Origin: a virus
Lineage: Duplodnaviria > Caudoviricetes
DNA length: 52,720 nucleotides
IMG/VR virus record: IMGVR_UViG_3300027782_000115
Span: 1 to 52,720 of that record
Reading direction: 5' to 3' (one strand)
Every line of letters starts with the position of its first letter. Position 1 is the stretch's first letter. The position numbers and the translations under genes are program-made. Below are positions 1 through 11,615 of this stretch, piece by piece. Below the pieces are notes generated by a model. That model saw only the letters and a list, made by a program, of their open reading frames with translations. It did not search any database and was not told the DNA's origin.

Positions 1-672
1 GCTGGCAACCGTGAAGGCGACCGTGGCGTGACATACCGTATGCCAGCTCCGTTGGCTAACCGTTTCATCCACTTGGAAGCCAAGGTAGACTTTGATGACT
101 TCCAAGAGTGGGCTGTGATGAATGCTGTACATCCAGAGGTGTTAGGTTATGTAGGCTTTGCCAAGCAAGACTTGTATGACTTTGATCCTAAGTCGCCCAG
201 CAAGGCTTTCGCAACTCCACGCTCATGGGTGTTCGTCAGCGACTTGCTCAAGGACGAGGACTGCGACAACGACACATTGCACAACTTGGTTGCGGGTGCC
301 GTTGGTGATGGCTTGGCTGTGAAGTTCATGGCTCACCGTAAAATCGCAGGTAAACTGCCCAAGGCAGAAGACATCCTCGACGGCAAGGTCAAGGACTTGC
401 AGGTCAAAGAAGTGTCAGCGATGTACTCCTTGACTGTGAGCCTGTGCTATGAGCTCAAGGACCGTGCAGACAAGAAGACCAAGGGTTGGGACAGTATGGC
501 AGACAACTTCTTCCGCTACATGATGGACTGTTTCCCAACTGAGTTGGTAGTGATGGGTGCTAAGACTGCGCTCACCAACTACGACTTGCCCTTAGACGCA
601 ACAAAGATGAAGAACTTTGACGAGTTCCACAAGCGTTTTGGCAAGTATGTGTTAAGTGCTATGGAGAACTAA
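1..672 (+). CDS. MoxR-like AAA+ ATPase (5' end lies before the window)
   Basis: Frame is open from base 1 (AGNREGDRGVTYRMPAPLANRF, sensor-1/Arg-finger region). TPRSW is sensor-2-like. Adjacent to a VWA protein. Confidence 0.85.
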   Translation, partial: AGNREGDRGVTYRMPAPLANRFIHLEAKVDFDDFQEWAVMNAVHPEVLGYVGFAKQDLYDFDPKSPSKAFATPRSWVFVSDLLKDEDCDNDTLHNLVAGAVGDGLAVKFMAHRKIAGKLPKAEDILDGKVKDLQVKEVSAMYSLTVSLCYELKDRADKKTKGWDSMADNFFRYMMDCFPTELVVMGAKTALTNYDLPLDATKMKNFDEFHKRFGKYVLSAMEN

Positions 673-688
673 CCTCTACTCTGTAGCA

Positions 689-729
689 GGGACGGGAAGC
701 TTCTCAGGGCTTGCCCGTCCATATTTTTT
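689..729 (+). terminator. Intrinsic terminator
   Basis: GGACGGG-AAGC...GCTT-G-CCCGTCC stem followed by ATATTTTTT. Confidence 0.6.
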
Positions 730-731
730 GG

Positions 732-760
732 TTGACAGGTGTGTGTTTTGATGCTATAAT
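732..760 (+). promoter_or_regulatory. sigma70-type early promoter
   Basis: TTGACA-N17-TATAAT with extended -10 TG; AAGGAG RBS downstream. Confidence 0.85.
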
Positions 761-786
761 ATACACATACTAAGGAGAGCGATACA

Positions 787-2004
787 ATGAGCAAAACAGA
801 TCAAACAATCATCGACAAACTGACAACTGCCCGTGTAGGGCTGTTGCTGAAAGCGCCGTTCTTCGGCAACATGGCAACCCGTATGCAATTAGTTGAAGCA
901 GACGAATGGTGCCCCACAGCGGCCACAGACGGTCGCAAGTTCTACTACAATACCAAGTTCGTTGAGAAGCTCAGTGTTAAGAAACTAGAGTTCCTGTTTG
1001 GACACGAGATTTGCCATTGCGTGTTTGATCACTTTGGTCGTGTAGGCTCACGCGATCGTCAGCTTTCTAACATCGCACAAGACTACGCGGTGAACCAGAT
1101 CCTCGTTGACGAGCGTATTGGTGAGAAGATCACTGAAGTTAAGATCTGTTATGACAGCAAGTATCGTGGTTTGGCTTGGGAAGAGATCTATGACATCCTG
1201 TGGGATAAAGCAGAGAAGATCTCTATGCCTGACTTGCTCAAGCAGTTAGGTGACCTGTTAGACGAGCACATCAACGAAGATGGTTCGAGCCCTGGCAAAG
1301 AAGGCGACAAAGAAGGCAAGGGTGGCAAGCCCGGCATGACCAAAGAAGAAGCACAGGCCATCCGTGATGAGATCAAAGAAGCCATGATCCAGAGTGCCGC
1401 GGCAGCAGGTGCAGGCAAGACCCCTGCAGGTATCCAACGCTTGATCAAGAACATGACTGAGCCTAAGATTAGCTGGCGTGACCTTGTACGTCAAGAGATC
1501 CAAAGCATTGTTCGCAACGATTACAGCTTCCAGCGTGTGAATCGCAAGAGTATGCACTCAGGTGCTATACTGCCAGGCATGAAAGAAGCAACTACCATTG
1601 ACGTGGCCATCAGCATTGACATGAGTGGTTCTATTGGTGATGAAGATGCAACTGCATTCCTCAGCGAGATCAAAGGCATCATGGACCAGTATGAAGACTT
1701 CCGCATCAACCTGTGGTGCTTTGACACAGAGATCTACAACTGGAAACAGATCACACACGATGACGCTCATGAGCTTGAGGACTATGAGCCTCAGGGTGGT
1801 GGCGGTACAGACTTCGAAGTCAACTGGACCTTCATGGAAGAGAACGGTATCGCTCCGAAGAAGTTCATCATGTTCACAGACGGCTACCCATGTGGCGGTT
1901 GGGGCAACGAGGATTACTGCGATACAATCTTTATCGTTAAAGGTAACACTTCAGCAGAAGCACCCTTTGGTCAGACTGTGATCTATGAAAAAGAGGCAGC
2001 ATGA
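787..2004 (+). CDS. DUF2201-type metallopeptidase + VWA domain protein (MoxR partner)
   Basis: TAATDG, HEICH (HExxH), MIDAS DMSGS, GGGGTDF and FTDGY motifs. Confidence 0.85.
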   Translation: MSKTDQTIIDKLTTARVGLLLKAPFFGNMATRMQLVEADEWCPTAATDGRKFYYNTKFVEKLSVKKLEFLFGHEICHCVFDHFGRVGSRDRQLSNIAQDYAVNQILVDERIGEKITEVKICYDSKYRGLAWEEIYDILWDKAEKISMPDLLKQLGDLLDEHINEDGSSPGKEGDKEGKGGKPGMTKEEAQAIRDEIKEAMIQSAAAAGAGKTPAGIQRLIKNMTEPKISWRDLVRQEIQSIVRNDYSFQRVNRKSMHSGAILPGMKEATTIDVAISIDMSGSIGDEDATAFLSEIKGIMDQYEDFRINLWCFDTEIYNWKQITHDDAHELEDYEPQGGGGTDFEVNWTFMEENGIAPKKFIMFTDGYPCGGWGNEDYCDTIFIVKGNTSAEAPFGQTVIYEKEAA

Positions 2005-2073
2005 TTGGAGTGCCAGGGGATGTGGCAGGTTAGCCACAGGCCCCGCTGCTTACGTGTGCGTACAACCTATCGG

Positions 2074-2102
2074 TTGACATCTAGGTATATTGGTGTTATA
2101 AT
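2074..2102 (+). promoter_or_regulatory. sigma70-type early promoter
   Basis: TTGACA-N17-TATAAT. Confidence 0.85.
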
Positions 2103-2133
2103 AAACACATAACAACAGAGCAAGGAGCGAAAG

Positions 2134-2271
2134 ATGGAAATGATAATTGCATTTGTAGTAGGTCTCATAGTGATGGATGTGTTGTGGGCATGGCGCCTAG
2201 GCATTCCCCAGATGCTGTGGTATCGCTTTAAGAATCGTAACAACCCCCAACCCGAAATTGATCAGGAGTAA
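2134..2271 (+). CDS. Small membrane protein, 45 aa (not in ORF track)
   Basis: AAGGAG RBS; MEMIIAFVVGLIVMDVLWAW... hydrophobic N-terminus. Confidence 0.65.
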   Translation: MEMIIAFVVGLIVMDVLWAWRLGIPQMLWYRFKNRNNPQPEIDQE

Positions 2272-2273
2272 TC

Positions 2274-2399
2274 ATGAGTCATATTATAGCATTCTTCCTC
2301 GGTATCTTTGTAGCAACTGTGGGCATCACAGGCGTGGCCAGTGTGGCTGACAGAGGTGTTACCCAAGTTCAACAAGTGATGAAAGAGGCTGCACAATGA
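2274..2399 (+). CDS. Small membrane protein, 41 aa (not in ORF track)
   Basis: AGGAG RBS; MSHIIAFFLGIFVATVGITG... Confidence 0.65.
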   Translation: MSHIIAFFLGIFVATVGITGVASVADRGVTQVQQVMKEAAQ

Positions 2400-2560
2400 G
2401 CGATCTAGCCTATGACATCGAGCAACTGTACATCGAGGGACACACACCTAGGATGATAGCAATCATGCTGGAGTGCCCCATCGAACAGGTCTTGGGCTGG
2501 TTGCAGGAAGTTGGTGTAGAAGCCGAAGACCACAGCCCGTATGCCACTGTAAACAGCTGA
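2396..2560 (+). CDS. Small protein, 54 aa, possible HTH (not in ORF track)
   Basis: ATGA coupling at the start; stop overlaps the next ATG (TGATG). MSDLAYDIEQLYIEGHTPRMIAIMLECPIEQVLGWL resembles an HTH pattern. Confidence 0.65.
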   Translation: MSDLAYDIEQLYIEGHTPRMIAIMLECPIEQVLGWLQEVGVEAEDHSPYATVNS

Positions 2561-2886
2561 TGAGCAAACTGGAGTACCTAGCTCGGCCAATGGTACCCTT
2601 TGATCCTTACAACAAGGATCATCGACGCTACTATGCAGCTTATCTAGAGTCGGGTGGTTGGGGGGCCTGTCCTGTAAGGTTTATCTGCCCTGAGGACAAC
2701 GGCGACAACCTGCCCAGCATGATCAAGAACAGTCTCATCGCGTGGTATGTTGAGAGCGAGTTCGGCGACGGCAAGCTGGCTAAAGAACGATCTAAGTCGT
2801 TGAAACTGAACGCTGACAGACTGTACAAGGAAGCTGGACAGATGCGCAAAGAAGCAGAGAGCCTGCTGAAACCCAGACGATCGTAG
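2560..2886 (+). CDS. Hypothetical protein, 108 aa
   Basis: Start re-assigned to MSKLEY, coupled to the upstream stop (TGATG). Confidence 0.7.
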   Translation: MSKLEYLARPMVPFDPYNKDHRRYYAAYLESGGWGACPVRFICPEDNGDNLPSMIKNSLIAWYVESEFGDGKLAKERSKSLKLNADRLYKEAGQMRKEAESLLKPRRS

Positions 2887-2903
2887 GGTCTTTCACAGAT
2901 TGG

Positions 2904-2932
2904 TTGACAGATTGGCTGTTCGGTGTTATACT
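2904..2932 (+). promoter_or_regulatory. sigma70-type early promoter
   Basis: TTGACA-N17-TATACT. Confidence 0.8.
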
Positions 2933-2961
2933 ATGGGTATAGTGAATAACAAGGAGCTGAA

Positions 2962-3342
2962 ATGAACGAATTCAAAAACTGGGAAGAGATGAGCACACTA
3001 GAGCAGTATGCTTGTCAGTACTGGGATATGCACAAGGATGCATATGGCGTTCGTCCACGCGGTATCGATACCAGCAGCTGGACCGAGGCTGACTTTGAAA
3101 TGGAGTTTGCCAGTCTAGGTGCTGTGATCCAGCAAGAAGAGGTTGTTCGCTGTGCCGCAGAGACTGAGGCCGTTCGCGGCTTTGAGATGCGAGTGCAGAG
3201 AATCTTAGCCTGCGGTGCTAAGGATCGGGCAATGGCCCTGCGTTGGATTCATGAGGCAGAAGGCACCAACGGTGACGACGAGTTCCTCTGTTGGACAGTA
3301 GGCTTGCCCTACCGTTATTTTGTAGATAACACGAAAGGCTAA
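2962..3342 (+). CDS. Hypothetical phage protein
   Basis: ORF with AAGGAG RBS after a promoter. Confidence 0.75.
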   Translation: MNEFKNWEEMSTLEQYACQYWDMHKDAYGVRPRGIDTSSWTEADFEMEFASLGAVIQQEEVVRCAAETEAVRGFEMRVQRILACGAKDRAMALRWIHEAEGTNGDDEFLCWTVGLPYRYFVDNTKG

Positions 3343-3344
3343 CG

Positions 3345-3575
3345 ATGAAGAAGTTCAAGTTCCTCATGAGTCGTACCAGTCTTATCGAAGAATCCTACTG
3401 GGTCGAAGCTGACTCAGAAGAAGAAGCCATGGAACTGGGGTTTGACGGTGAAGTTGACAACAGCGAGCCGGCCTATCGCAGATGGATTGACTATACCGAC
3501 GACGAATGGAGTATAGATGAGAAAGAATGCATTGACCCTTTGTATGTCATGGTCAAAGACTATCAACCAGGTTGA
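3345..3575 (+). CDS. Acidic hypothetical protein
   Basis: ORF with AAAGG RBS; stop lies inside the next -35 box. Confidence 0.7.
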   Translation: MKKFKFLMSRTSLIEESYWVEADSEEEAMELGFDGEVDNSEPAYRRWIDYTDDEWSIDEKECIDPLYVMVKDYQPG

Positions 3576-3600
3576 CACAGAGACATTTTGGTGTTATAAT
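3572..3600 (+). promoter_or_regulatory. sigma70-type early promoter
   Basis: TTGACA-N17-TATAAT. Confidence 0.85.
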
Positions 3601-3624
3601 ATTAACTTAACTTAAGGAGCGACT

Positions 3625-4257
3625 ATGCCTAATTGGTGTTCAAATCATATTACGGTGCGTGGAGACAATCCCGCAGAGATACAGCGACTAGCGGCTGCAT
3701 TCGCCGACAGTGGACTCTGCAACGCAGTGATCCCAGTGCCGCAAGACCTCACTGACACAGTCAGTGGCCGCCTAGGCAACGGCGACGAACAGAAGGCTTT
3801 GGAAGCCAAGACAGCAGCCAATCTAGAGAAGTATGGATATGGCAACTGGTATGACTATCAGATAGCCAAGTGGGGTACCAAGTGGGATGTCACCTGTGAC
3901 AGCGTAGAGATCGACCAAGACGGTCTTGGATTCAGCGGCAACTTTGACAGTGCCTGGTCACCTCCAGTTCCAATCGCAGAAGCATTGGCTGAACAAGGCT
4001 TTGAAGTCACACTTTACTACTACGAACCCGGTATGGGCTACTGTGGTAAATGGGAAGATGGATTCGATGACTACCACGAGTATAGTGGTGAGACTTCAGC
4101 AACTGTGCGAGCTGCCATCGGCGATGATCTTGATGACATGTTCGGTATCTCAGAATCCATCGCTGAATACGAAGCTGAGAATCCAGAGGAAGAGCTCACA
4201 GAGTGGATCAAAGACGGAGTTGAGAAGAACAACAAACTGGGATTGATCACAGAATGA
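3625..4257 (+). CDS. DUF1281/YubB ferredoxin-like domain protein
   Basis: MPNWCxN, WYDY..KWGTKWD, FDSAWSPP and YYEPG motifs. Confidence 0.75.
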   Translation: MPNWCSNHITVRGDNPAEIQRLAAAFADSGLCNAVIPVPQDLTDTVSGRLGNGDEQKALEAKTAANLEKYGYGNWYDYQIAKWGTKWDVTCDSVEIDQDGLGFSGNFDSAWSPPVPIAEALAEQGFEVTLYYYEPGMGYCGKWEDGFDDYHEYSGETSATVRAAIGDDLDDMFGISESIAEYEAENPEEELTEWIKDGVEKNNKLGLITE

Positions 4258-4430
4258 GAACCTACACCTTTACTTTTACCGTGAGCTGCCAAGGATCAGG
4301 ATCCCCGGATCTCGCCAGGGTAGAAGAGATGATTGATCTCAGCATGCAGGATCTGGTCTTCGATGACGAGTTCGTTGCTGCCCTTGATGAACAGGAGGCT
4401 GTGACCATACAGGTTAATTTGGTAAAATGA
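4254..4430 (+). CDS. Acidic hypothetical protein, 58 aa (not in ORF track)
   Basis: ATGA overlap; MRTYTFTFTVSCQGSGSPDLARVEEMID... Confidence 0.65.
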   Translation: MRTYTFTFTVSCQGSGSPDLARVEEMIDLSMQDLVFDDEFVAALDEQEAVTIQVNLVK

Positions 4431-4434
4431 ATGG

Positions 4435-4463
4435 TTGACGCTGAATCAAATCGGTGCTATACT
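4435..4463 (+). promoter_or_regulatory. sigma70-type early promoter
   Basis: TTGACG-N17-TATACT with extended -10. Confidence 0.75.
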
Positions 4464-4525
4464 AATAACATGCTGAAGAATTGGCATACACTTTAAACAC
4501 ACATAGAGAAAAAGGAAATAGTAAA

Positions 4526-4828
4526 ATGAGTACAGATAAGAAATTTGCAGTTGTAGGCGTCTCAACACACGAAGGCAAGACCAAGGTTCGGTTTGCCAAT
4601 GACACAATGCGTGTGAAGATCCTGCAGAAGAACGGTCACACTGATGTGGACATCGTAGAGCTGCCCACAGAGATGACCAAGGCTGAAGCCGTTCAGCACT
4701 TGAAGAGCACAGGCTTCGGCAAGGGCAACTCAGCTATCGAAGCTGCTCTGGCCTACGCTGAGAAGAAGAATCCAGTCTCCGTGACTGCCAAGAACTCCGC
4801 TGTAAAGGCAGAGACTGTTACCGCGTAA
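4526..4828 (+). CDS. Hypothetical protein, 100 aa
   Basis: Start MSTDKK after AAAGGA; followed by a terminator. Confidence 0.75.
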   Translation: MSTDKKFAVVGVSTHEGKTKVRFANDTMRVKILQKNGHTDVDIVELPTEMTKAEAVQHLKSTGFGKGNSAIEAALAYAEKKNPVSVTAKNSAVKAETVTA

Positions 4829-4858
4829 ATCCGACTCGCTCCCGGTACGGTGACCTTG

Positions 4859-4891
4859 GAGACCCTATGTAATGTAGGGTCTCTTTTTTTT
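4859..4891 (+). terminator. Intrinsic terminator
   Basis: GAGACCCTA...TAGGGTCTC stem + T8. Confidence 0.85.
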
Positions 4892-4893
4892 GG

Positions 4894-4922
4894 TTGACAG
4901 ATTGGACATTGTGCGTTATAAT
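4894..4922 (+). promoter_or_regulatory. sigma70-type early promoter
   Basis: TTGACA-N17-TATAAT. Confidence 0.85.
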
Positions 4923-4949
4923 AGCTACTTACACACACAGGAGCACACG

Positions 4950-5201
4950 ATGTTAACACAATGCATAGCATACGCTAAACTAGTTTACAACAAAAAATTA
5001 AATGCCTATAAAATGCAAATTGCATTTAATGTACACAAAGAGTTAGTGGGCACTAACTACAAAATGCGTTTTCCTGTACAAGCAAAATGCAACTATGTTA
5101 GTGGGGACTTACTTGCAGAAGATTTACAAAGTGAAGTGCAACGCACTATTGCAACAGCAAGCAAGCACCTGCGTACAACTAATATTGTAATAGTAGAGTA
5201 A
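4950..5201 (+). CDS. Hypothetical protein, 83 aa
   Basis: AGGAG RBS; start MLTQCIAY. Confidence 0.7.
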   Translation: MLTQCIAYAKLVYNKKLNAYKMQIAFNVHKELVGTNYKMRFPVQAKCNYVSGDLLAEDLQSEVQRTIATASKHLRTTNIVIVE

Positions 5202-5214
5202 AGCATAGGGCTAT

Positions 5215-5254
5215 TAGCACACTACTTGCATTTTGGACAGTAGTGTGCTATAAT
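5215..5254 (+). promoter_or_regulatory. Hairpin promoter copy 1
   Basis: TTGCAT(5226)-N17-TATAAT(5249) inside a 12-bp inverted repeat TAGCACACTACT/AGTAGTGTGCTA. Confidence 0.8.
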
Positions 5255-5279
5255 AACAACTTAGCAACAAAGGAACACA

Positions 5280-5438
5280 ATGCAAGACTTACAAGCACAA
5301 AAACAGCGTTTAGACAGTTTAATGTTTAGCGTACAAATTTTGCTAGACGAAATGGGTTTAGACGACGCATACACTGTGCAAAGTGCGTTTAATGCGTTAG
5401 CTTGTGCAGTAGACGAAGCTACAAGCGACAGCTACTAA
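5280..5438 (+). CDS. Acidic hypothetical protein, 52 aa (not in ORF track)
   Basis: AAGGA RBS; MQDLQAQKQRLDSLMFSVQILLDEMGLDD...; no Pro, all Ser codons AGY. Confidence 0.7.
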   Translation: MQDLQAQKQRLDSLMFSVQILLDEMGLDDAYTVQSAFNALACAVDEATSDSY

Positions 5439-5461
5439 TAACACTACAGCGTAAGGGTTAT

Positions 5462-5501
5462 TAGCACACTACTTGCATTTTGGACAGTAGTGTGCTATAA
5501 T
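5462..5501 (+). promoter_or_regulatory. Hairpin promoter copy 2
   Basis: Identical to copy 1 over the inverted repeat and the -10 box. Confidence 0.8.
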
Positions 5502-5532
5502 AAGTTTTTAAACAATGCAATAGGAGCACACA

Positions 5533-5910
5533 ATGCAAGCAACGACATTTAATGTTAGCGACAAGCTGACACTAGCAGGTACAGAGACTAACACAGACAG
5601 CATTAGCACAACATACGACTGCAATGTACTAGTGCAACTTGCGGGCGACAGTATATGGGACTGCGAGCTAGAGGCAGTTACAGTTACAAGCATACACATA
5701 CACGAGCAATGGTGGGACGAATTGGAAGGCGATAGTAGCATACACATTACAGTGTGCTACACAGTTAACGGCGACACAGAGTACGAGGGCAGTTGGAGAC
5801 TGTACACAGACAGCGGCTTTGTAGATGCGATTAGTACACTGCTAGGAACAGAGGTTATGTTTACAGAGCAGGGTATGCAAGACAACGGCTATGCTAGCAT
5901 GGAGCTGTAA
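5533..5910 (+). CDS. Very acidic hypothetical protein, 125 aa
   Basis: AGGAG RBS; about 22 D/E against 2 K/R; no Pro. Confidence 0.75.
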   Translation: MQATTFNVSDKLTLAGTETNTDSISTTYDCNVLVQLAGDSIWDCELEAVTVTSIHIHEQWWDELEGDSSIHITVCYTVNGDTEYEGSWRLYTDSGFVDAISTLLGTEVMFTEQGMQDNGYASMEL

Positions 5911-5931
5911 CACTACAACGTGTAGGGTCTT

Positions 5932-5970
5932 TAGCACACACTTGCATTTTGGACAAGTGTGTGCTATAAT
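5932..5970 (+). promoter_or_regulatory. Hairpin promoter copy 3
   Basis: TTGCAT(5942)-N17-TATAAT(5965) inside a 13-bp inverted repeat TAGCACACACTTG/CAAGTGTGTGCTA. Confidence 0.8.
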
Positions 5971-5997
5971 AAGTTTTTAAACAGTAAAAGGAAACAC

Positions 5998-6180
5998 ATG
6001 TCTAGACATCATTTAGTAGTATTTGCAAACTATTGCAGAGACACAGGCTTTACGCTTGTAGAGGCCGTTAAGTACGTGGGAGACAACTTAGAGACAGACG
6101 CAATTGACGACGAGATCGCGTATGCATATGAGGCAACATACGAAGAGCTTATGCAGTTTGTAGAGACCCAGACAGCGTAA
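5998..6180 (+). CDS. Acidic hypothetical protein, 60 aa
   Basis: AAGGA RBS; start MSRHHL. Confidence 0.7.
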   Translation: MSRHHLVVFANYCRDTGFTLVEAVKYVGDNLETDAIDDEIAYAYEATYEELMQFVETQTA

Positions 6181-6216
6181 GGGTCTTTGGGGCTACCGGC
6201 CCCGCTGCTTAAGGGG

Positions 6217-6245
6217 TTGACAGTTTGGCCTAAAGGCAGTATAAT
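6217..6245 (+). promoter_or_regulatory. sigma70-type early promoter
   Basis: TTGACA-N17-TATAAT. Confidence 0.85.
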
Positions 6246-6269
6246 AAACACATACACACAGGAGCAGAC

Positions 6270-6560
6270 ATGAACATCAGTCAAGTCAATCAGGCCATCA
6301 TGCATGGCAACTTCACCAACGATGAACTCAGTTCGATCATAGATGCGGTCAAGTATGGCCGGGCTCGACTCACACGAGAAGTCAAGCGAGGCCTGGCTGT
6401 GGGAGACAATGTGAACTTCACCAGCACCAAACTGGGACGCAACGTCACAGGAGTGATCACCAAGATCGCTATCAAGTATGTCACGGTTAAGACTGTGAAT
6501 GGCCTGTGGCGAGTGCCTGCGAACATGCTCTCCAAGATCGAAACCCCAGAGTTCGCATAA
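6270..6560 (+). CDS. Hypothetical protein, possible SH3/KOW-like C-terminus
   Basis: AGGAG RBS; LAVGDNVNF...GVITKI...WRVP pattern. Confidence 0.75.
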   Translation: MNISQVNQAIMHGNFTNDELSSIIDAVKYGRARLTREVKRGLAVGDNVNFTSTKLGRNVTGVITKIAIKYVTVKTVNGLWRVPANMLSKIETPEFA

Positions 6561-6562
6561 AT

Positions 6563-6952
6563 ATGGACATGATAGAAACTGTGCTGATCTTGGTGGTGGT
6601 GTTCTGGTTAGGTTACCAGACGGCCGCTAGATTCCATCGAAATATCTTCCGTGAGATCCTAAAGGAACTAGGAGTGACCGAACGGCAACTGAATGATCTC
6701 ATGCTGCGACAGCAGCAACAGTTGGCCGGCCTGACCCCCCAAGAACCCACTGCAGAGCTTGATGTGGTCGAAGTAAGGTTGGAACAGATGGGCGATGTGA
6801 TCTATGCTTATCGCAAGAGCGACGATCAGTTCCTAGGTCAAGGCTGTGATCGAGACAGCTTGATCCAGCGTTTGAACCAGAACCTCACTTCATGCAAGTT
6901 GGTGGTTGATGTGGACGACGGCGCTGATCTGTTGCGAAAAAACAACACCTAA
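6563..6952 (+). CDS. Membrane-anchored hypothetical protein (start 6563 or 6569)
   Basis: N-terminal TM segment VLILVVVFWLGY; ATAAATA motif 5 nt before the ATG at 6569. Confidence 0.7.
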   Translation: MDMIETVLILVVVFWLGYQTAARFHRNIFREILKELGVTERQLNDLMLRQQQQLAGLTPQEPTAELDVVEVRLEQMGDVIYAYRKSDDQFLGQGCDRDSLIQRLNQNLTSCKLVVDVDDGADLLRKNNT

Positions 6953-6957
6953 TTTGG

Positions 6958-6986
6958 TTGACAGATTGGGTGTTCAGTGTTACAAT
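6958..6986 (+). promoter_or_regulatory. sigma70-type promoter, probably leaderless transcript
   Basis: TTGACA-N17-TACAAT; ATG 6 nt after the -10 box with no SD. Confidence 0.75.
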
Positions 6987-6992
6987 ACACAC

Positions 6993-7223
6993 ATGAACAA
7001 AACAAATGAACTTCTACAATGGACAGGTGCTGTAGCCATAGTGCTAGGGCACATTCTCAACGCTGTAGGTCCTGCAGCTTATCCCTATAACATCATCGTG
7101 TTTGCTGTAGGCACAGTGCTGTTCTTAACATGGGCATTCCGCGTTAAGAACCGCCCGCAGCTGATGGTTAATGTGATTTCATTAGCCATAGGACTTGTAG
7201 GGTTATTGAGAGCAGTTGGTTGA
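6993..7223 (+). CDS. Small 3-TM membrane protein, 76 aa
   Basis: Three hydrophobic segments; start MNKTNELLQW. Confidence 0.7.
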   Translation: MNKTNELLQWTGAVAIVLGHILNAVGPAAYPYNIIVFAVGTVLFLTWAFRVKNRPQLMVNVISLAIGLVGLLRAVG

Positions 7224-7248
7224 CAGATTGGCAGTTTGAGCATATAAT
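7220..7248 (+). promoter_or_regulatory. sigma70-type promoter of the ncRNA-tRNA unit
   Basis: TTGACA-N17-TATAAT with no ORF or RBS downstream. Confidence 0.85.
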
Positions 7249-7274
7249 AGAAACAAGAAGAAAGAAAAAGCAAG

Positions 7275-7361
7275 GCGGTCCTCGAATGTAAGAACCCAGC
7301 AGCGATGCAAAAAGGGTTGGAACCAAGGGACTCGAAGCGAGTTAGGAGACTCGGCCTCCGC
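7275..7361 (+). ncRNA. Candidate structured RNA A
   Basis: GCGG/CCGC closing pairs; GTCCT/GGGAC; AACCC/GGGTT; GCA-GCGA-TGC GNRA hairpin; CGAGT/ACTCG hairpin. Confidence 0.5.
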
Positions 7362-7371
7362 GATAACAAAA

Positions 7372-7601
7372 CAGTTAGATAAGAGTTAAAGGTTACCTAG
7401 ACCACTAGGCGACTGGGAAGATGACAGTACCGACGGGCGCTGGTCGAGTCCAGGAGCATGAAACAAGGTCAGCGGCATAGGCCGTGTGGACCTGGAGTTG
7501 CGGTGGAGAATCTAGGCAGTAATGACCGTGCAGGCCCTTGTGGAGACGTTCCCCTGGGAAGAGATAGATGCACAATGGTTCCTTTAATTCTTTTCTAACT
7601 G
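7372..7601 (+). ncRNA. Candidate structured RNA B (~230 nt)
   Basis: 21-nt closing stem 7372-7392/7581-7601 (one G-U, one mismatch) plus several nested helices. Confidence 0.65.
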
Positions 7602-7608
7602 AGATTTT

Positions 7609-7684
7609 GCCGTGGTAGTCCTCTGGGTAGGGCATCTGATTGTCTATCAGACTCAGGCGGGTTCGATTCCCGTCCACGGCGCCA
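7609..7684 (+). tRNA. tRNA-Asp (GUC)
   Basis: Acceptor stem GCCGTGG/CCACGGC; anticodon stem TCTGA/TCAGA with GTC at 7642-7644; TTCGATT T-loop; discriminator G; encoded CCA. Confidence 0.93.
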
Positions 7685-7705
7685 CAACAACACAAGGAGC
7701 GAAAC

Positions 7706-7855
7706 ATGGCGAGATTCTTGCTAGAGACACAGAGAGGACAGTTCACAGTCTATGCTCTCGACGGTCATGTGTTGTTGGTCACTCGCATGTATTCCTTGGC
7801 GCATCGTGCGGCCCTAACAGAAATCCACAGAGCAATAGCAGTTAGTAGGGGTTGA
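7706..7855 (+). CDS. Hypothetical protein, 49 aa
   Basis: AAGGAG RBS; start MARFLLE. Confidence 0.65.
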   Translation: MARFLLETQRGQFTVYALDGHVLLVTRMYSLAHRAALTEIHRAIAVSRG

Positions 7856-7880
7856 CAGCCTAGCCAAAAGGTCTTATACT
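7852..7880 (+). promoter_or_regulatory. sigma70-type early promoter
   Basis: TTGACA-N17-TATACT. Confidence 0.8.
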
Positions 7881-7906
7881 ACAGATATTAACACAAAGGA
7901 ATCAAA

Positions 7907-8203
7907 ATGAAACACGTGAAGATCGCCATTGTTGCCCTAGCCGCTGTGATAGCAGTTCCAGCTCATGCAGACATCACACAACGCGATGTCCTGGGCGTGG
8001 CCATAGGAGCCTTGATTGGTTATCAACTTGCCAAGCCTGGTTCACAGCCACAGCATGACCAACCACAGTCAGTGCCTATGCATCAAGGTCATCGACACGA
8101 TCACATGCCGGCCACCTGTGTTCTGCGCCAGGTCTACAGCGCACCAGGCCAAGGTCCTATCTATGTTCAAGAGTGCCACGGCGGTGGCCGTAGACACTAC
8201 TAA
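7907..8203 (+). CDS. Exported protein with glycine-zipper-like segment
   Basis: Signal peptide ending AHA; GVAIGALIG. Confidence 0.7.
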   Translation: MKHVKIAIVALAAVIAVPAHADITQRDVLGVAIGALIGYQLAKPGSQPQHDQPQSVPMHQGHRHDHMPATCVLRQVYSAPGQGPIYVQECHGGGRRHY

Positions 8204-8212
8204 GGAGCAGCC

Positions 8213-8473
8213 GTGGGTTTCGTAGTCTATGATCAGCAGTCGGGACGCATGGAGAAGTACTACAAATTGGCTTCAACAGCCAAGCGGATCTGCACTCAGC
8301 ACAACACCGAACGCACCTACGATTGGGGTAGGACGATGGGGGTGCCTAGCTATACCTACAGTCCGGAACGTGTGTGGGCTTTCTGCTCATACAGGGACTA
8401 TGAAGGCATATTGATGGGACTGCGTGGTGATGCACTGAAGATGTGGCAGTTCTGCAACACTGATATTGGTTGA
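8213..8473 (+). CDS. Hypothetical protein
   Basis: AAGGAG RBS with GTG start. Confidence 0.7.
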   Translation: MGFVVYDQQSGRMEKYYKLASTAKRICTQHNTERTYDWGRTMGVPSYTYSPERVWAFCSYRDYEGILMGLRGDALKMWQFCNTDIG

Positions 8474-8498
8474 CACTTTGGGTGTTTGATCGTATACT
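8470..8498 (+). promoter_or_regulatory. sigma70-type early promoter
   Basis: TTGACA-N17-TATACT. Confidence 0.8.
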
Positions 8499-8528
8499 AG
8501 AGGCTAAGTTAAACAAAAGGAGCGAACT

Positions 8529-8642
8529 ATGTTACAACTGATCGGATTCTGTGCTGTGGTATATTTAGGTTGGGTCTCTGGCATCATCCAAGCTATGCTG
8601 TTGATCACTGCTGGTTTTTTAACTACAATCGCAGGAGTCTAA
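8529..8642 (+). CDS. Hydrophobic microprotein, 37 aa (not in ORF track)
   Basis: AAGGAG RBS; MLQLIGFCAVVYLGWVSGIIQAMLLITAGFLTTIAGV. Confidence 0.6.
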   Translation: MLQLIGFCAVVYLGWVSGIIQAMLLITAGFLTTIAGV

Positions 8643-8643
8643 C

Positions 8644-8739
8644 ATGGAATGGATCATCCCCGTAATCCTAGCTTTTACTGGTCAGTTGGTGTTGGGCTTG
8701 GCAGTGGCCGCAGTGCTGATCTTCATCGAACAGGAATAA
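8644..8739 (+). CDS. Hydrophobic microprotein, 31 aa (not in ORF track)
   Basis: AGGAG RBS; MEWIIPVILAFTGQLVLGLAVAAVLIFIEQE. Confidence 0.6.
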   Translation: MEWIIPVILAFTGQLVLGLAVAAVLIFIEQE

Positions 8740-8748
8740 CCCAGTTGG

Positions 8749-8777
8749 TTGACAGGTCTTTCAAAAGACCGTATAAT
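8749..8777 (+). promoter_or_regulatory. sigma70-type early promoter
   Basis: TTGACA-N17-TATAAT; spacer contains the palindrome GGTCTT-TCAA-AAGACC. Confidence 0.85.
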
Positions 8778-8803
8778 ATACACATACACACAAAGGAGCA
8801 CAC

Positions 8804-9073
8804 ATGAAAGCACTACAGGCATACATTGATCAGCAAAACCGTTGGAACTCACTGTTCAGCGGCAACTGCGTGGTCTTTGAAGTCCAGACCGCCAAGGGAC
8901 GTGAGTTCGTGGCACGACACATTGACAGCGCACTGAGTCCTGAGAACCTCAGCTGTGATGGCGAACTGTCACGCACGGAAACACAGGCTCGCTATCGTGC
9001 ATTGACCAACGCGGCACGAGACTTGATCCAGCTGGATCCTACAATGGCCGAATTTATCTACGAATTCGGTTGA
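8804..9073 (+). CDS. Hypothetical phage protein
   Basis: AAGGAG RBS; LSPENLSCDGE motif. Confidence 0.75.
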   Translation: MKALQAYIDQQNRWNSLFSGNCVVFEVQTAKGREFVARHIDSALSPENLSCDGELSRTETQARYRALTNAARDLIQLDPTMAEFIYEFG

Positions 9074-9098
9074 CAGTTTGAGCATTTGACCTTATAAT
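9070..9098 (+). promoter_or_regulatory. sigma70-type early promoter
   Basis: TTGACA-N17-TATAAT. Confidence 0.85.
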
Positions 9099-9129
9099 AA
9101 ACACATACACACACAAACAGGAGCGAAAA

Positions 9130-9654
9130 ATGAAAGTAGTTGAATACACACAAAACAAGGCCATGGGATTCTTTGATGCCAACACTAACCCTGTGGTAGT
9201 AGAGTTCATGCTGGGCAATGAAGTATTAGTAGTCACAGGTGAGCGTGGCCGGGCAGTGAGCAACGGTCAGATTCAGAAGTATTTGGGCTTCTTGGAAAAA
9301 GATCAGACATTCACTAACCGTTCAGTAACTGATCTCGCTTATCAATCATTCTTGTTAGAAAACGGCCGCACCAAGAACGGGAAACCGGTGCGAGCCCTGG
9401 GCTTCATCGGCAAGAACATACCCGAAGGCCGCTCAGGTGATGTGACCCTGCGTGTTACCATCTGTAACACAGTCGAGCAAGCAGCCACAGTGAGCAAACT
9501 GTATCGCGACACTCGCTTGCCTAAAGTACGCACCATCCGCAGGGCAGTGCCTATTGGCAACAACACAGTCTCTGAACTCAGCATGTATCGTCCTACTGAC
9601 AACCTAGTGATCGATGCTGGCAGCGCTCGTAATGTAGTGGCTAGATTTGCCTAA
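9130..9654 (+). CDS. Hypothetical protein
   Basis: AGGAG RBS; 174-aa ORF. Confidence 0.75.
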   Translation: MKVVEYTQNKAMGFFDANTNPVVVEFMLGNEVLVVTGERGRAVSNGQIQKYLGFLEKDQTFTNRSVTDLAYQSFLLENGRTKNGKPVRALGFIGKNIPEGRSGDVTLRVTICNTVEQAATVSKLYRDTRLPKVRTIRRAVPIGNNTVSELSMYRPTDNLVIDAGSARNVVARFA

Positions 9655-9968
9655 TGCAAGCACTGGTAGAAACCACAGGGGGCGCATTCCACGCCCACAC
9701 ATATCTACTAGACGGTAACAATCTAGTAGCATATGTAAAAGTCAACGAGCTTAAGCCGTTCTACTTCAAGAACCCAATCAAAGGATTCGACAAGAGAGGT
9801 AGGAAGTTTGCACCAGGCAACAAGAACTTATTCACAATCAAGAAAGAAACTCATGGACGCACAGTTATTGGTAGTAGTGGGCAAACGTACACAGTCACAG
9901 AACACTCATGTACGTGTCCAGGATACACCTACAGAGGTACCTGCAAACACATGGCAGAACATGTGTGA
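9654..9968 (+). CDS. SWIM zinc-finger protein
   Basis: CTC-x8-CKH motif. Confidence 0.75.
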   Translation: MQALVETTGGAFHAHTYLLDGNNLVAYVKVNELKPFYFKNPIKGFDKRGRKFAPGNKNLFTIKKETHGRTVIGSSGQTYTVTEHSCTCPGYTYRGTCKHMAEHV

Positions 9969-9986
9969 CTATCTAAAGAGCCTGGC

Positions 9987-10223
9987 ATGATCACCATACA
10001 CGGACTCACCAAGCGGCAACACAAGCTGGCACAACTGCTGTGGTCGGTGCAGGATGTAGAGCAGCACATACTATTCCTCAAGAGCCTAGAGGGGCGTGAT
10101 CGCGTAGATGCACACGGCATCACAGAGATAATGATACAAGAGTTCTTATGGGAGACACTGGATGAAGATACAGAAAGCCAAGCAGTCTGCGCTGCTGTTA
10201 TTGATCGCGCTCGCAGCAGCTAG
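9987..10223 (+). CDS. Hypothetical protein
   Basis: ORF continuing the operon. Confidence 0.55.
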   Translation: MITIHGLTKRQHKLAQLLWSVQDVEQHILFLKSLEGRDRVDAHGITEIMIQEFLWETLDEDTESQAVCAAVIDRARSS

Positions 10224-10386
10224 CACGGGCTGCGCTACACACGATCGCAGGGACACAGCCTGGGACCCAAAGATATCTCAGGGCAAGACTCTGTTCGATC
10301 AGATGCCCAACTGGGACAACGCTGCGGAGAAGATCTGCTGTGGTCACCTGAGACAGTGTAAGGCCAATCAATCGCCGAGGTGCTGA
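10162..10386 (+). CDS. Putative small lipoprotein
   Basis: Basic N-terminus, hydrophobic stretch, lipobox-like STG-C; Cys-rich C-terminus. Confidence 0.55.
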   Translation: MKIQKAKQSALLLLIALAAASTGCATHDRRDTAWDPKISQGKTLFDQMPNWDNAAEKICCGHLRQCKANQSPRC

Positions 10387-10556
10387 GGTCATGGTGAGGG
10401 GCCGGTGGTGGTCATGGTGGGGTGGTCGGTATACACGTAGTATGTTAGTATGCGCTAACTAGCAGCTATGGGGTCTAGATTCACCACCCAAGAAACATAA
10501 GTACTCCACCCAAATTTTTTACGCCGCAATTTTTTAGGCCTCTAGACCCCGTCGGG

Positions 10557-10931
10557 CTAACCCCTCAGATATTCTATTGCACGTTGTAATCGTTCTACAT
10601 CGTCTGCGAGATTGCCCAATCCTAGATTACACTTGTGACACAGCCATCCTCGGAACAGCCCAGTCACATGATCGTGATCACAGACCCAGCCTTTGAGTCT
10701 AGTACTGTGTCCCTGCATCATTGCAAAGTCGCGTCTACATATAGGACATTGATGATCATCAGCCACTGGGGGCGCGGTTTTCTTGATTGCTCTCAGTGTT
10801 TTACTCTGTGCGCTGGCACACTGTTTACACTCATATCTAGGATAGCCATGCCGTCCACCGTCCCTACCGAACTCGCTTAATGGTTTCGATATTAGGCACA
10901 TGCCACAGGTCTTTGTTGTGATTGTTGTCAT
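10557..10931 (-). CDS. Endonuclease VII-like (His-Me finger) nuclease, 124 aa
   Basis: CxxC pairs; CPIC...DHDH..G.FRGWLC..CN..LG motif; start re-assigned to MTTITT. Confidence 0.85.
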   Translation of the reverse strand: MTTITTKTCGMCLISKPLSEFGRDGGRHGYPRYECKQCASAQSKTLRAIKKTAPPVADDHQCPICRRDFAMMQGHSTRLKGWVCDHDHVTGLFRGWLCHKCNLGLGNLADDVERLQRAIEYLRG

Positions 10932-10938
10932 AGCAGCT

Positions 10939-10967
10939 ATTATAGCTAAAGTTCTACACTGTGTCAA
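10939..10967 (-). promoter_or_regulatory. sigma70-type promoter, probably leaderless transcript
   Basis: TTGACA-N17-TATAAT on the - strand; ATG 7 nt after the -10 box. Confidence 0.8.
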
Positions 10968-10983
10968 CCCTTGTAAATACCAT

Positions 10984-11175
10984 ATGCGAATCATATACAC
11001 CACTCTCAGCCTTGCGCCCGCTCCCCTATTCTTGCTAGGGTTTATATACAGTGTGTTTACTCCCAGTGCCATATGCGGAGTAGATTGGTCTATGCCTGTG
11101 ATGTGGTTTGTTATGTTTCTAGCCCATTTAACACCGTGGGTTCTACGCTGTCAACAACTGTACCTTACCAGGTAA
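10984..11175 (+). CDS. Small 2-TM membrane protein, 63 aa
   Basis: Hydrophobic; preceded by GTAAATA late-type motif. Confidence 0.55.
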   Translation: MRIIYTTLSLAPAPLFLLGFIYSVFTPSAICGVDWSMPVMWFVMFLAHLTPWVLRCQQLYLTR

Positions 11176-11387
11176 ACTAAAGCAACAGTGATATGCACCT
11201 TGCAGCACAGCATATGATTGCCAATAGTATATCTCCAGCAAGTCTTGTCTATCTGGAGGACACCATACTAGATCGTGAATCTGTATTATACCCACAGGAC
11301 CTTGGATAGTCACTGTGCAGTGGTATTCACCGGTGCTGTCAATTACAGTTAACATACACATATATAGTCCCGGACTGTAAATACACT

Positions 11388-11519
11388 ATGATCTACATCC
11401 TAGTCATAGATTCGCACAACTGCATGGAATTTTGGGTCAGAGACTGTGCTGTGATATATCAACGGATCCTAGGGGGCATGATCTACACAGTGCAGGTTGA
11501 ACATGCGGTCAGTGACTGA
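11388..11519 (+). CDS. Hypothetical protein, 43 aa (not in ORF track)
   Basis: GTAAATA-N4-ATG; MIYILVIDSHNCMEFW... Confidence 0.4.
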   Translation: MIYILVIDSHNCMEFWVRDCAVIYQRILGGMIYTVQVEHAVSD

Positions 11520-11615
11520 GAAAAATCTGCGCTCTAGTGCTCTGCACAAAAAAATTTTGCGCTGCGCTTCGCCAGGAATAATCCCACCTAGAACTCTAGT
11601 TGATAATTATTGTAT

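What the first reader, a model, noticed from the sequence alone, without database searches (positions are those of the whole stretch)
4884..6000. Strand-specific TC/CC-free island: possible modification-free, first-expressed module
Seen: between 5170 and 5927 (758 nt) the + strand has no TC and no CC. Across 4884-6000 I find only 2 TC and 3 CC, whereas flanking lines have several per 60 nt. GA and GG remain common on the + strand, so the bias is strand-specific: the template strand lacks GA and GG. The constraint reaches the proteins (5280-5438 and 5533-5910 have no Pro and use only AGY for Ser). The island's promoters also replace TTGACA with the GA-free TTGCAT. Known: some phages hypermodify G in sequence context (for example preQ0 at GA/GGC in phage CAjan). 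Removing TC/CC from one strand also removes every palindrome containing GA/TC or GG/CC (GATC, GANTC, CCGG, GGCC, CCWGG). Inference: these genes are under selection to stay readable by host RNA polymerase, or to escape a motif-specific defence (restriction, DarT-type ADP-ribosylation, ssDNA deamination), before phage counter-measures are made.
Basis: partly seen in the sequence, partly recalled or inferred. Interest (0 to 1): 0.9.

Follow-up and report, generated by a model that had tools for sequence, protein, structure and literature searches.

The report
Phage early genes lacking TC and CC
A group of tiny early genes in an uncultured freshwater giant phage is written so that its messenger RNA never contains the letter pairs UC or CC, which are the pairs the bacterial terminator protein Rho grips, so these genes may be built to escape premature shut-off by the host.

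Summary
On the + strand, 5170-5927 has no TC or CC, a 760-nt gap. The next longest gap in the window is 123 nt, and the longest elsewhere in a 353-kb, 98%-complete relative is 160 nt. 0 of 5000 synonymous resamplings reach zero.

All 21 orthologues of the 125-aa gene have zero YC despite at least 206 substitutions. About 24 unrelated small-protein families share the state. A deep clade of 27 homologues is YC-free or YC-poor, while the same domain inside larger proteins of another lineage has normal YC.

C is kept but moved behind purines, so this is selection and not a hypermutation scar.

The constraint covers UTRs, intergenic spacers and codon junctions. It follows transcription units driven by sigma-70 consensus promoters.

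Best reading, confidence about 0.4: the RNA is purged of YC, the ligand of Rho's six primary binding clefts. The internal intrinsic terminators are also disabled, giving termination-proof early transcripts.

Main rival, about 0.3: escape from an unknown YC-specific RNA or ssDNA-targeting enzyme.

The parts
4858..4892 (+). Canonical intrinsic terminator (GGAGACCCTA..TAGGGTCTC plus T-run) that closes the preceding ordinary early unit. It holds the last YC-rich element before the island.
   Evidence: 12-pair stem, T-run; sequence
4894..4922 (+). Entry promoter, TTGACA-17-TATAAT (12 of 12 consensus)
4950..5201 (+). ORF of 83 aa (family FAM1). It is YC-poor: 4 YC against 14.5 expected. Three of them (5072-5074, TCC) lie at the Phe-Pro codons (TTT CCT).
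5170..5927 (+). Core stretch with no TC and no CC on the sense strand
5216..5254 (+). Internal promoter TTGCAT-17-TATAAT (5226-5254). It is embraced by a 10-bp inverted repeat, AGCACACTAC / GTAGTGTGCT, that contains neither YC nor GR.
5280..5438 (+). ORF of 52 aa, acidic, 0 YC, no Pro
5435..5464 (+). Degenerate terminator. It is a canonical AACCCTA..TAGGGTT hairpin with CCC changed to CAC and the T-run replaced by TTATTA.
5473..5501 (+). Internal promoter TTGCAT-17-TATAAT with the same inverted repeat
5533..5910 (+). ORF of 125 aa (FAM0), the anchor gene of the island. It has 0 YC in all 21 orthologues. The AlphaFold model has pLDDT 93.4 and shows a beta-sheet plus helix fold with no named relative.
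5942..5970 (+). Third TTGCAT-17-TATAAT promoter. The first TC after the core (5928) lies just upstream of it.
5998..6180 (+). ORF of 60 aa, YC-poor (6 against 10.5 expected). This is the trailing edge of the island.
6217..6245 (+). Next ordinary early promoter (TTGACA-17-TATAAT). The gene behind it, 6270-6560, has 36 YC.

Best explanation
The island is a run of host-RNA-polymerase early mini-genes whose sense strand, and therefore whose RNA, has been purged by selection of the dinucleotides UC and CC (YC).

YC is the unit bound by each of the six primary-binding clefts of the termination factor Rho. An RNA without YC offers Rho no loading (rut) site.

Inside the island the usual intrinsic terminators are also disabled. 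The stem CCC is changed to CAC and the T-run is lost. A canonical terminator returns at the exit.

Together this would make a transcription unit that cannot be ended prematurely. Polymerases starting at any of its three to five strong promoters would run through to the last gene, usually the conserved 125-aa gene.

What is shown:
- YC is absent.
- The absence is conserved under substitution.
- The absence is limited to the sense strand of transcription units.
- The internal terminators have decayed.

What is inferred:
- Rho is the selective agent.
- These genes need the protection because they must be made before, or independently of, any other protection of phage transcripts (a bootstrap logic).
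For: 1. The missing set is exactly {TC, CC}. CT (observed/expected 1.06) and TT (1.24) are not depleted. C stays at 18.8% but is relocated behind purines: AC and GC are 11.1 and 7.6 per 100 nt against 5.6 and 4.8 elsewhere. Purine content, 0.57-0.60, is like the flanking early genes.

2. Passages read in the literature:
- Rho's primary binding site has six clefts, each accommodating one YC dinucleotide. Mutating single YCs lowered Rho termination and ATPase activity (PMC5314796).
- The clefts are described as 5'-YC-binding PBS clefts (PMC12360218).
- %YC and YC-dimer counts are among the best predictors of Rho terminators. Termination is probabilistic in rut density (PMC6144790).
- Avoidance of Rho shapes coding-strand composition genome-wide (PMC13323073).

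3. The constraint is on nucleic acid, not on codons. Codon junctions carry YC at 8.6% in background genes, and about 220 nt of UTR and intergenic sequence are also YC-free.

4. It follows transcripts.
- Promoter DNA between -35 and +1 carries at least one YC in 140 of 193 ordinary promoters, in 3 of 18 island-entry promoters and in 0 of 17 internal ones.
- In L069 (two units) and L022 the last YC lies in the promoter spacer about 20 nt before the expected start. After it there is none for 460-740 nt.
- The run ends a median of 26 nt after the stop codon of the 125-aa gene (n=25).
- 6 of 14 exits have a canonical terminator, against 0 of 21 internal junctions and 9 of 168 ordinary ones.

5. Promoters are perfect sigma-70 consensus. 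The nearest cultured relative by terminase (54% identity), PA5oct, depends on host RNA polymerase (PMC7318152, passages).

6. Selection is long-lived and broad.
- 21 orthologues (14 distinct sequences) carry at least 206 substitutions, with variable columns by codon position of 44/37/84, and zero YC. 24% of random point changes would create one, giving P of about 6e-25.
- A clade of 27 homologues (support 90/92) is YC-free (22) or YC-poor (5). There is one independent gain, L112.
- A universal, conserved agent such as Rho fits such constancy better than a patchily distributed defence. This last point is inference.
Against: 1. Neighbouring early genes with the same consensus promoters have ordinary YC, 8-13 per 100 nt. 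Rho alone does not explain why only this island is purged.

2. Rho needs several spaced YCs. One or two per 100 nt should be harmless, yet the count is zero over up to 1357 nt. Exact zero suggests that each single site is costly.

3. YC was removed even from the 5' arm of terminator stems, where Rho could hardly bind.

4. The host is unknown, so the presence and importance of Rho are assumed.

5. No YC-free island was found in the first 50 kb (terminal repeat and early region) of PA5oct or in T7.

6. No direct transcript ends are available. The RNA libraries hold only contigs.
Confidence: 0.4

Rival explanations
1. Escape from a still unknown host immunity enzyme that acts at YC in single-stranded RNA, or on the exposed non-template DNA strand. 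It could be a nuclease, a deaminase or an ADP-ribosyltransferase. The island cassettes would be counter-defence genes that must stay expressible while that enzyme is active, so every site is costly.
For: - The count is exactly zero over 0.4-1.4 kb, and YC was purged even from terminator stems.
- The effect is restricted to a cassette-shuffled set of about 24 small, mostly acidic orphan proteins typical of early anti-defence genes. Contigs in RNA libraries show alternative cassette joints.
- There is a precedent for a dinucleotide-specific mRNA-targeting defence: CmdT modifies A in GA of mRNA (table in PMC12945103; preprint 10.1101/2024.02.24.581662 seen only as a search listing).
- APOBEC-type and some bacterial deaminases prefer a pyrimidine before C (recalled, not checked).
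Against: - No enzyme with YC specificity is known in bacterial defence. My search (36 papers, 12 listed) showed none.
- A strain-specific defence would not be expected to hold the state constant across a deep phage clade.
- A general shredder of YC would also destroy the phage's other early RNAs, which have normal YC.
- For a DNA-level attack, protecting 1 kb of a roughly 350-kb genome gives no obvious benefit.
Confidence: 0.3
2. A phage-encoded, YC-cutting RNase for host shut-off or early-to-middle switching (like T4 RegB at GGAG, recalled). The island messages would be exempt from it.
For: It would explain strand specificity, inclusion of UTRs, exact zero, and the trait travelling with the phage lineage.
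Against: All other phage genes, including late ones, have normal YC at 5.9-10.5 per 100 nt in 34 long ORFs, and they would be cut too. No candidate gene was identified. The genome was not fully annotated here.
Confidence: 0.08
3. The template strand is kept free of 5'-GA and 5'-GG so that G modification (7-deazaguanine type) or G adducts (DarT1-like ADP-ribosylation) cannot block host RNA polymerase on these genes.
For: - The template strand has no GA or GG, by complementarity.
- A lesion on the template would make each site costly, and it would explain purging of hairpin stems.
Against: - No TGT/DpdA in 0 of 3 records, with the control positive in 14 of 14.
- QueC gives only a partial 26-bit hit in 1 of 3 records.
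- No DNA methylase or deaminase families were found.
- No consensus motif could be defined for DarT1 (PMC11543638, passages).
- DarT2's TNTC is on the wrong strand for a template block. GA, and hence TC on the template, is common.
- Three entry promoters tolerate YC just upstream of the start.
Confidence: 0.08
4. A codon, tRNA or RNA-structure effect. This would be avoidance of Pro and TCN-Ser codons, of sequences complementary to the Shine-Dalgarno site, or of RNA folding.
For: No Pro and no TCN Ser. Every complement of GGAG/AGGA contains UC or CC (logic).
Against: - Codon junctions and non-coding spacers are equally purged.
- Island RNA is still predicted to fold: -33 kcal per 150 nt against -39 to -40 in flanks, at lower GC.
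- It contains designed hairpins.
Confidence: 0.03
5. A mutational scar, that is APOBEC-like C-to-T hypermutation of one strand without selection.
For: The dinucleotide set matches the APOBEC3 footprint (recalled).
Against: - C content is kept (18.8%).
- RC dinucleotides are doubled, and YT is not enriched.
- ORFs are intact with third-position-biased substitution.
- The state is held through at least 206 substitutions.
Confidence: 0.02

Closest known systems
Rho avoidance by coding-strand composition ('purine bias driven by runaway transcription', PMC13323073; passages read)
   Same: Sense-strand sequence is shaped so that nascent RNA does not attract Rho. The complementary strand keeps the pyrimidine signals.
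   Different: That case is a genome-wide, statistical purine excess in bacteria. This one is a local (0.4-1.4 kb), exact, dinucleotide-level purge in a phage, with no extra purine excess over the neighbouring genes. No phage case is mentioned in that paper (0 occurrences of 'phage').
Phage antitermination devices: lambda N and Q, HK022 put RNA, P4 Psu (Q and Psu in passages of PMC12360218; N and put recalled)
   Same: The presumed goal is the same, namely phage transcripts that host termination cannot stop.
   Different: Those act through a protein or a structured RNA that modifies the polymerase or blocks Rho. Here no such element was found: Rfam finds only a tRNA in 1-12000. The protection would lie in the absence of the recognition dinucleotide itself.
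Cleavage-motif-free messages (ACA-less mRNAs that survive MazF; recalled) and restriction-site avoidance in phage genomes
   Same: A short motif is removed from a sequence that must survive a motif-specific enzyme.
   Different: Restriction avoidance is symmetric on both strands and concerns 4-8-bp sites. Here only one strand and two dinucleotides are concerned, and no enzyme with this specificity is known.
Context-specific 7-deazaguanine modification of phage DNA
   Same: The dinucleotides missing from the template strand (GA, GG) resemble that motif set.
   Different: No DpdA/TGT gene in this phage lineage. The bias is limited to one transcript-sized island.

Membership tests
Rho-immune (rut-free) transcript | No, or very few, single-stranded YC dinucleotides on the RNA strand | tested here: met
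   0 YC in 5170-5927. 0 in 21 of 21 orthologues.
Rho-immune (rut-free) transcript | No C>G-rich region on the RNA strand | tested here: met
   C 18.8% is below G 24.1% in the core. The flanking early genes also have C below G, so this does not single out the island.
Rho-immune (rut-free) transcript | The constraint follows the transcription unit (start to terminator) and the sense strand only | tested here: inconclusive
   Sense strand only. Boundaries fall at the promoter spacer in 3 cases and at terminators. However 15 of 18 entry promoters also lack YC upstream of the start, and no transcript ends were measured.
Rho-immune (rut-free) transcript | Transcribed by host RNA polymerase in a host that has Rho | not testable with these tools
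   Sigma-70 consensus promoters, and PA5oct depends on host polymerase. The host is unknown.
Rho-immune (rut-free) transcript | Measured insensitivity to Rho | not testable with these tools
   Needs in vitro transcription or ATPase assays, or bicyclomycin reporters.
7-deazaguanine (DpdA) modified phage DNA | DpdA / tRNA-guanine transglycosylase homologue in the phage | tested here: not met
   PF01702: 0 of 3 records, including G001 (98% complete). The control rang in 14 of 14 genomes.
7-deazaguanine (DpdA) modified phage DNA | preQ0 synthesis genes (QueC and others) | tested here: inconclusive
   PF06508: one 26-bit hit to profile positions 4-68 in a 311-aa frame of G001, and none in G000 or G002. 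FolE, QueD and QueE were not searched.
APOBEC-type hypermutation footprint | Loss of C with gain of YT, and damaged reading frames | tested here: not met
   C kept, RC doubled, YT not enriched, ORFs intact.
CmdTAC-type mRNA ADP-ribosylation target avoidance | Depletion of GA on the mRNA strand | tested here: not met
   GA occurs 43 times in 760 nt, observed/expected 0.69.
DarT2 (TNTC on ssDNA) avoidance on the template strand | The template strand lacks TNTC, i.e. the + strand lacks GANA | tested here: not met
   GA is common on the + strand. The TNTC motif is from passages.
RNA antiterminators in Rfam (nut/put-like) | Match to a curated RNA family in the early region | tested here: not met
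   cmscan of 1-12000 at E<=0.1 finds only tRNA-Asp. Families absent from Rfam are not excluded.
Palindromic restriction-site avoidance | Symmetric depletion on both strands | tested here: not met
   The opposite strand has normal YC: GA+GG = 77 in the core. The longest GR-free run in the window is 126 nt.

The most novel reading that the evidence does not exclude
The island is the footprint of an undiscovered bacterial immunity enzyme with dinucleotide (YC) specificity for RNA or exposed single-stranded DNA. Its roughly 24 families of tiny acidic proteins are the phage's counter-defence set, encoded in target-free messages so that they can still be made under attack. If so, motif-free islands would be a sequence-only way to find both anti-defence genes and the specificity of the defences they face.
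Probability: 0.3. Interest if true: 0.9.

Novelty: new variant of a known kind. Interest (0 to 1): 0.8.

Why it matters
If the Rho reading holds, this is a cis-encoded form of antitermination that needs no factor. The message simply lacks the two-letter word that Rho reads. It would also be a natural, extreme test case for what Rho needs in vivo.

It would point to a set of phage genes that must be expressed before anything else. It would give a simple rule for building Rho-proof expression cassettes.

If the rival holds, the island reveals the specificity of an unknown defence and a catalogue of candidate anti-defence proteins.

Either way the signal can be found from sequence alone. It could be scanned for in all phage genomes.

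I found no description of such islands. Searches returned 18, 16 and 32 papers, and none reported a YC-free phage region. The library does not hold most subscription journals.

Tried and rejected
Identity of the sequence
- megablast and blastn of the island against 'phages' gave no match.
- tblastn of the 125-aa protein gave no match.
- tblastn with a distant 491-aa homologue gave only a 32-residue hit to Methylophilales phages, outside the shared domain.

Function of the island proteins
- PHROGs and Pfam on 20 island proteins gave nothing above threshold.
- The ESM Atlas gave no usable hit.
- The first AlphaFold model (14 rows) had pLDDT 66 and gave nothing.
- The second model (44 rows, pLDDT 93.4) found no solved structure. 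Foldseek's best E was 0.39, and a weak row to 'Lockin with 3'cADPR' had probability 0.84 and TM 0.35. VIA's best Z was 5.5.
- BFVD gave unnamed viral proteins, best E 1.6e-4 with TM 0.69.
- Complex prediction of the 125-aa protein with E. coli Rho returned no answer. That is neither for nor against binding.

Other genomes
- PA5oct bases 1-50000: the longest YC-free run is 187 nt, and the low counts near 39.5-41 kb go with low C content. The remaining 237 kb were not scanned.
- T7: the longest run is 104 nt.

Ideas considered and dropped
- UV (6-4) photoproducts at TC/CC (recalled chemistry). The wrong strand is purged for a template block.
- CRISPR PAM avoidance (CC, TTC; recalled). PAMs act on both strands, and GG stays common.
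- Primase sites, topoisomerase sites and Type III restriction orientation. None explains a two-dinucleotide, 1-kb, sense-strand pattern.
- Unstructured RNA.

RNA libraries
- Five freshwater or lake RNA runs hold 5-9% of the sampled words.
- Four runs were laid, and contigs cover all 30 bins in X1.
- These are contigs. They show no starts, ends or levels, and the libraries may contain DNA. I use them only to say that the sequence recurs.

Limits of the tools
- Supplementary tables of the PA5oct paper (promoters, terminators) could not be seen. They might show whether PA5oct has comparable units.
Full report
**What the window is.** The window is an IMG/VR viral record of 52,720 bases, rated 15% complete. 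Its large terminase is 54% identical to that of the Pseudomonas jumbo phage PA5oct and its kin. Related records reach 353 kb at 98% completeness. So it is a fragment of an uncultured jumbo phage.

Positions 2-9.5 kb are an array of tiny + strand genes. Each has a sigma-70 type promoter. 18 promoter-like sites were found against 9.5 expected, and seven of them are perfect TTGACA-17-TATAAT. In the complete relative G001, 29 such promoters lie on one strand, 27 of them between 300 and 350 kb. PA5oct, by the passages I read, depends on host RNA polymerase and transcribes such small genes early (PMC7318152).

**The observation.** It is correct to the base.
- In 4884-6000 the + strand has TC at 5072 and 5928 and CC at 5005, 5073 and 5168, and nowhere else.
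- GA occurs 55 times and GG 44 times.
- The gap 5168 to 5928 is 760 nt. The next longest gaps in the window are 123, 109 and 95 nt, and two of those are in the island's own flank. On the other strand the longest is 126 nt.
- In the 353-kb relative the island (922 nt) is unique. The next longest run on either strand is 160 nt. No other single dinucleotide is missing for more than 321 nt.
- T7 has nothing longer than 104 nt. The first 50 kb of PA5oct have nothing longer than 187 nt.

**It is not a codon effect.** Resampling synonymous codons from the window's own usage gives 10.2 and 19.7 expected YC for the two core ORFs. 0 of 5000 draws reach zero. The proteins themselves are adapted. They have no Pro, Ser only as AGY, and no NTC or NCC codon. 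Codon junctions carry YC at 8.6% in background genes, and the roughly 220 non-coding bases of the core are purged as well.

**It is not a mutational scar.** C stays at 18.8%. AC and GC are about doubled, at 11.1 and 7.6 per 100 nt against 5.6 and 4.8. CT and TT are not enriched, and purine content equals that of neighbouring genes. The RNA is still predicted to fold.

**Conservation.** A search with the 125-aa ORF found 20 viral contigs at 71-90% protein identity. All 20 have a YC-free run of 436-1288 nt at the orthologue.
- The 21 orthologues (14 distinct DNA sequences) differ by at least 206 substitutions. Variable columns by codon position are 44/37/84, the pattern of a translated gene.
- All have zero YC, although 24% of possible point changes would create one. 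That gives P of about 6e-25 if changes were free.
- A profile search added 60 further loci.
  - 15 have zero YC in the match. The longest runs are 1341 and 1357 nt.
  - 6 have 2-6 YC where 24-33 are expected.
  - 39 have normal counts.
- The normal ones are the same domain embedded in proteins of 87-726 aa, in contigs of 34-43% G+C, without a consensus promoter.
- 20 of the 21 purged ones are stand-alone ORFs of 98-136 aa (L067 is cut by its contig's end). 17 of the 21 have a consensus promoter within 120 nt.
- On a tree, 27 rows form one clade (support 90/92) that is wholly YC-free (22) or YC-poor (5). The other clade holds 16 normal rows plus L112, a stand-alone promoter-driven gene that has become YC-poor independently.
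- The state is regional, not a property of one gene. 96 YC-free or YC-poor ORFs from 42 sources fall into 24 families of small, mostly acidic proteins. These are shuffled between relatives.
- The profile search of the protein collection found 2766 clusters of the 125-aa family, so the lineage is abundant.

**Anatomy.** Ordinary units in this phage end in a hairpin of the type GAGACCCTA..TAGGGTCTC, followed by Ts and then ggTTGACA.
- Inside the island the same hairpin persists in crippled form. AACCCTA has become AACACTA, which removes both CCs at the price of an A-G mismatch. TAGGGTC plus the T-run has become TAGGGTTATTA.
- By a strict definition, 0 of 21 internal junctions have a terminator, 6 of 14 exits do, and 9 of 168 ordinary junctions do.
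- The YC-free run reaches a median of 160 nt (range 2-937) upstream of the 125-aa gene's ATG. It reaches only a median of 26 nt (range 8-630) beyond its stop (n=25). That gene is thus usually, though not always, the last one.
- Promoter DNA between -35 and +1 has at least one YC in 140 of 193 ordinary promoters, 3 of 18 entry promoters and 0 of 17 internal promoters.
- In L069 (twice) and L022 the last YC sits in the promoter spacer, about 20 nt before the expected start. None follows for 460-740 nt.
- This is what a constraint on the transcript predicts. However, most entry promoters lack YC too, possibly because island promoters are copies of one another.

**Mechanism.** The missing set, a pyrimidine followed by C on the RNA strand, is the ligand of Rho's primary binding site.
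- There are six clefts, one YC each. Removing single YCs lowers termination and ATPase activity (PMC5314796; PMC12360218).
- %YC and YC-dimer counts are leading predictors of Rho terminators (PMC6144790).
- Avoidance of Rho has recently been shown to shape coding-strand composition in bacteria (PMC13323073).

I therefore read the island as a termination-proof early unit with no rut sites and no working intrinsic terminators, closed by a real terminator. A bootstrap logic would explain why only some genes need this. Products that must appear before, or without, any other protection of phage transcripts cannot rely on that protection. That step is inference.

**Weaknesses of this reading.**
- Neighbours with identical promoters have normal YC.
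- Rho should tolerate a few YCs, yet the count is exactly zero.
- YC was removed even from stem arms.
- The host is unknown.

These points favour a per-site agent. I hold as the main rival an unknown YC-specific enzyme acting on RNA or on the exposed non-template strand, with the cassettes as counter-defence genes. CmdT, which targets GA in mRNA (table in PMC12945103), shows that dinucleotide-specific mRNA-targeting defences exist. GA itself is not avoided here.

Avoiding G modification on the template strand is not supported.
- No TGT/DpdA in 0 of 3 records, with a positive control.
- Only a partial QueC-like hit.
- No C5 or N4/N6 methylase and no cytidine-deaminase family.
- DarT1 has no defined motif, and DarT2's TNTC would be on the wrong strand.

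**The proteins.** They give no clue. There is no Pfam or PHROG function. The 125-aa protein has a confident model (pLDDT 93.4). That model has no solved relative and only unnamed viral look-alikes.

**Verdict.** It is conserved by selection, and I found no description of it in print. The best explanation is Rho-proof transcripts (0.4). The main rival is escape from an unknown YC-specific enzyme (0.3).

Noticed in passing
window 5216-5254, 5463-5501, 5933-5970; also L007, L008, L017, L018, L068, L073, L078: Many island promoters sit inside a hairpin. A 6-10-bp arm lies just upstream of -35 and pairs with the last spacer bases before -10. The arms covary between loci (GCACAC/GTGTGC, GCGCAC/GTGCGC, GCACAGCTAG/CTAGCTGTGC). 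Stems of at least 6 bp occur in 8 of 19 island promoters against 40 of 206 others. Function unknown: RNA 3' stabiliser, processing site or operator.
   Followed up: partly
window 5435-5464 and equivalents in L008, L018, L019: Island-internal terminators are conserved in crippled form (AACACTAC..GTAGGGTTATTA) rather than deleted. The weakened hairpin may therefore keep some function.
   Followed up: partly
window 2000-9500; G001 300-350 kb: Very dense array of perfect TTGACA-17-TATAAT promoters, one per tiny gene. There are 7 perfect ones in 7.5 kb. In G001, 29 lie on one strand, 27 of them between 300 and 350 kb.
   Followed up: partly
window 4892-6254 (joints in RNA-library contigs): Contigs from RNA libraries join 4905 to 5987, 5910 to 6195 and other pairs. 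These are relatives with other cassette orders. It looks as if recombination between the repeated promoters shuffles the cassettes.
   Followed up: no
L082-L121 (for example L085 2227-3702): The 125-aa domain (AGDSIWD..YTDSGF..FTEQGMQ.DG.ASME) also occurs inside very acidic proteins of 87-726 aa, in viral contigs of 34-43% G+C, with normal YC.
   Followed up: partly
window 7609-7684: tRNA-Asp (GTC) lies inside the early array. The island proteins are rich in Asp (10.2% against 6.7%).
   Followed up: no
window 787-2004: 405-aa HNH endonuclease (phrog_1314, E 1.5e-108) among the early genes.
   Followed up: no
L004 5967-6128 (also L005, L006): A separate 53-aa gene with 0 YC (164-nt run) lies two ordinary genes downstream of the main island. 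YC-free units can therefore be split.
   Followed up: no
G001 71437-71634 (- strand): A 311-aa frame has a 26-bit match to the N-terminal PP-loop part of QueC only. It is probably another PP-loop ATPase.
   Followed up: no
window, sense strands of 32 long ORFs: Coding strands of the whole phage are purine-rich (A 33.4% + G 21.6% = 55%). That is the level the 2026 paper links to Rho avoidance in bacteria.
   Followed up: no
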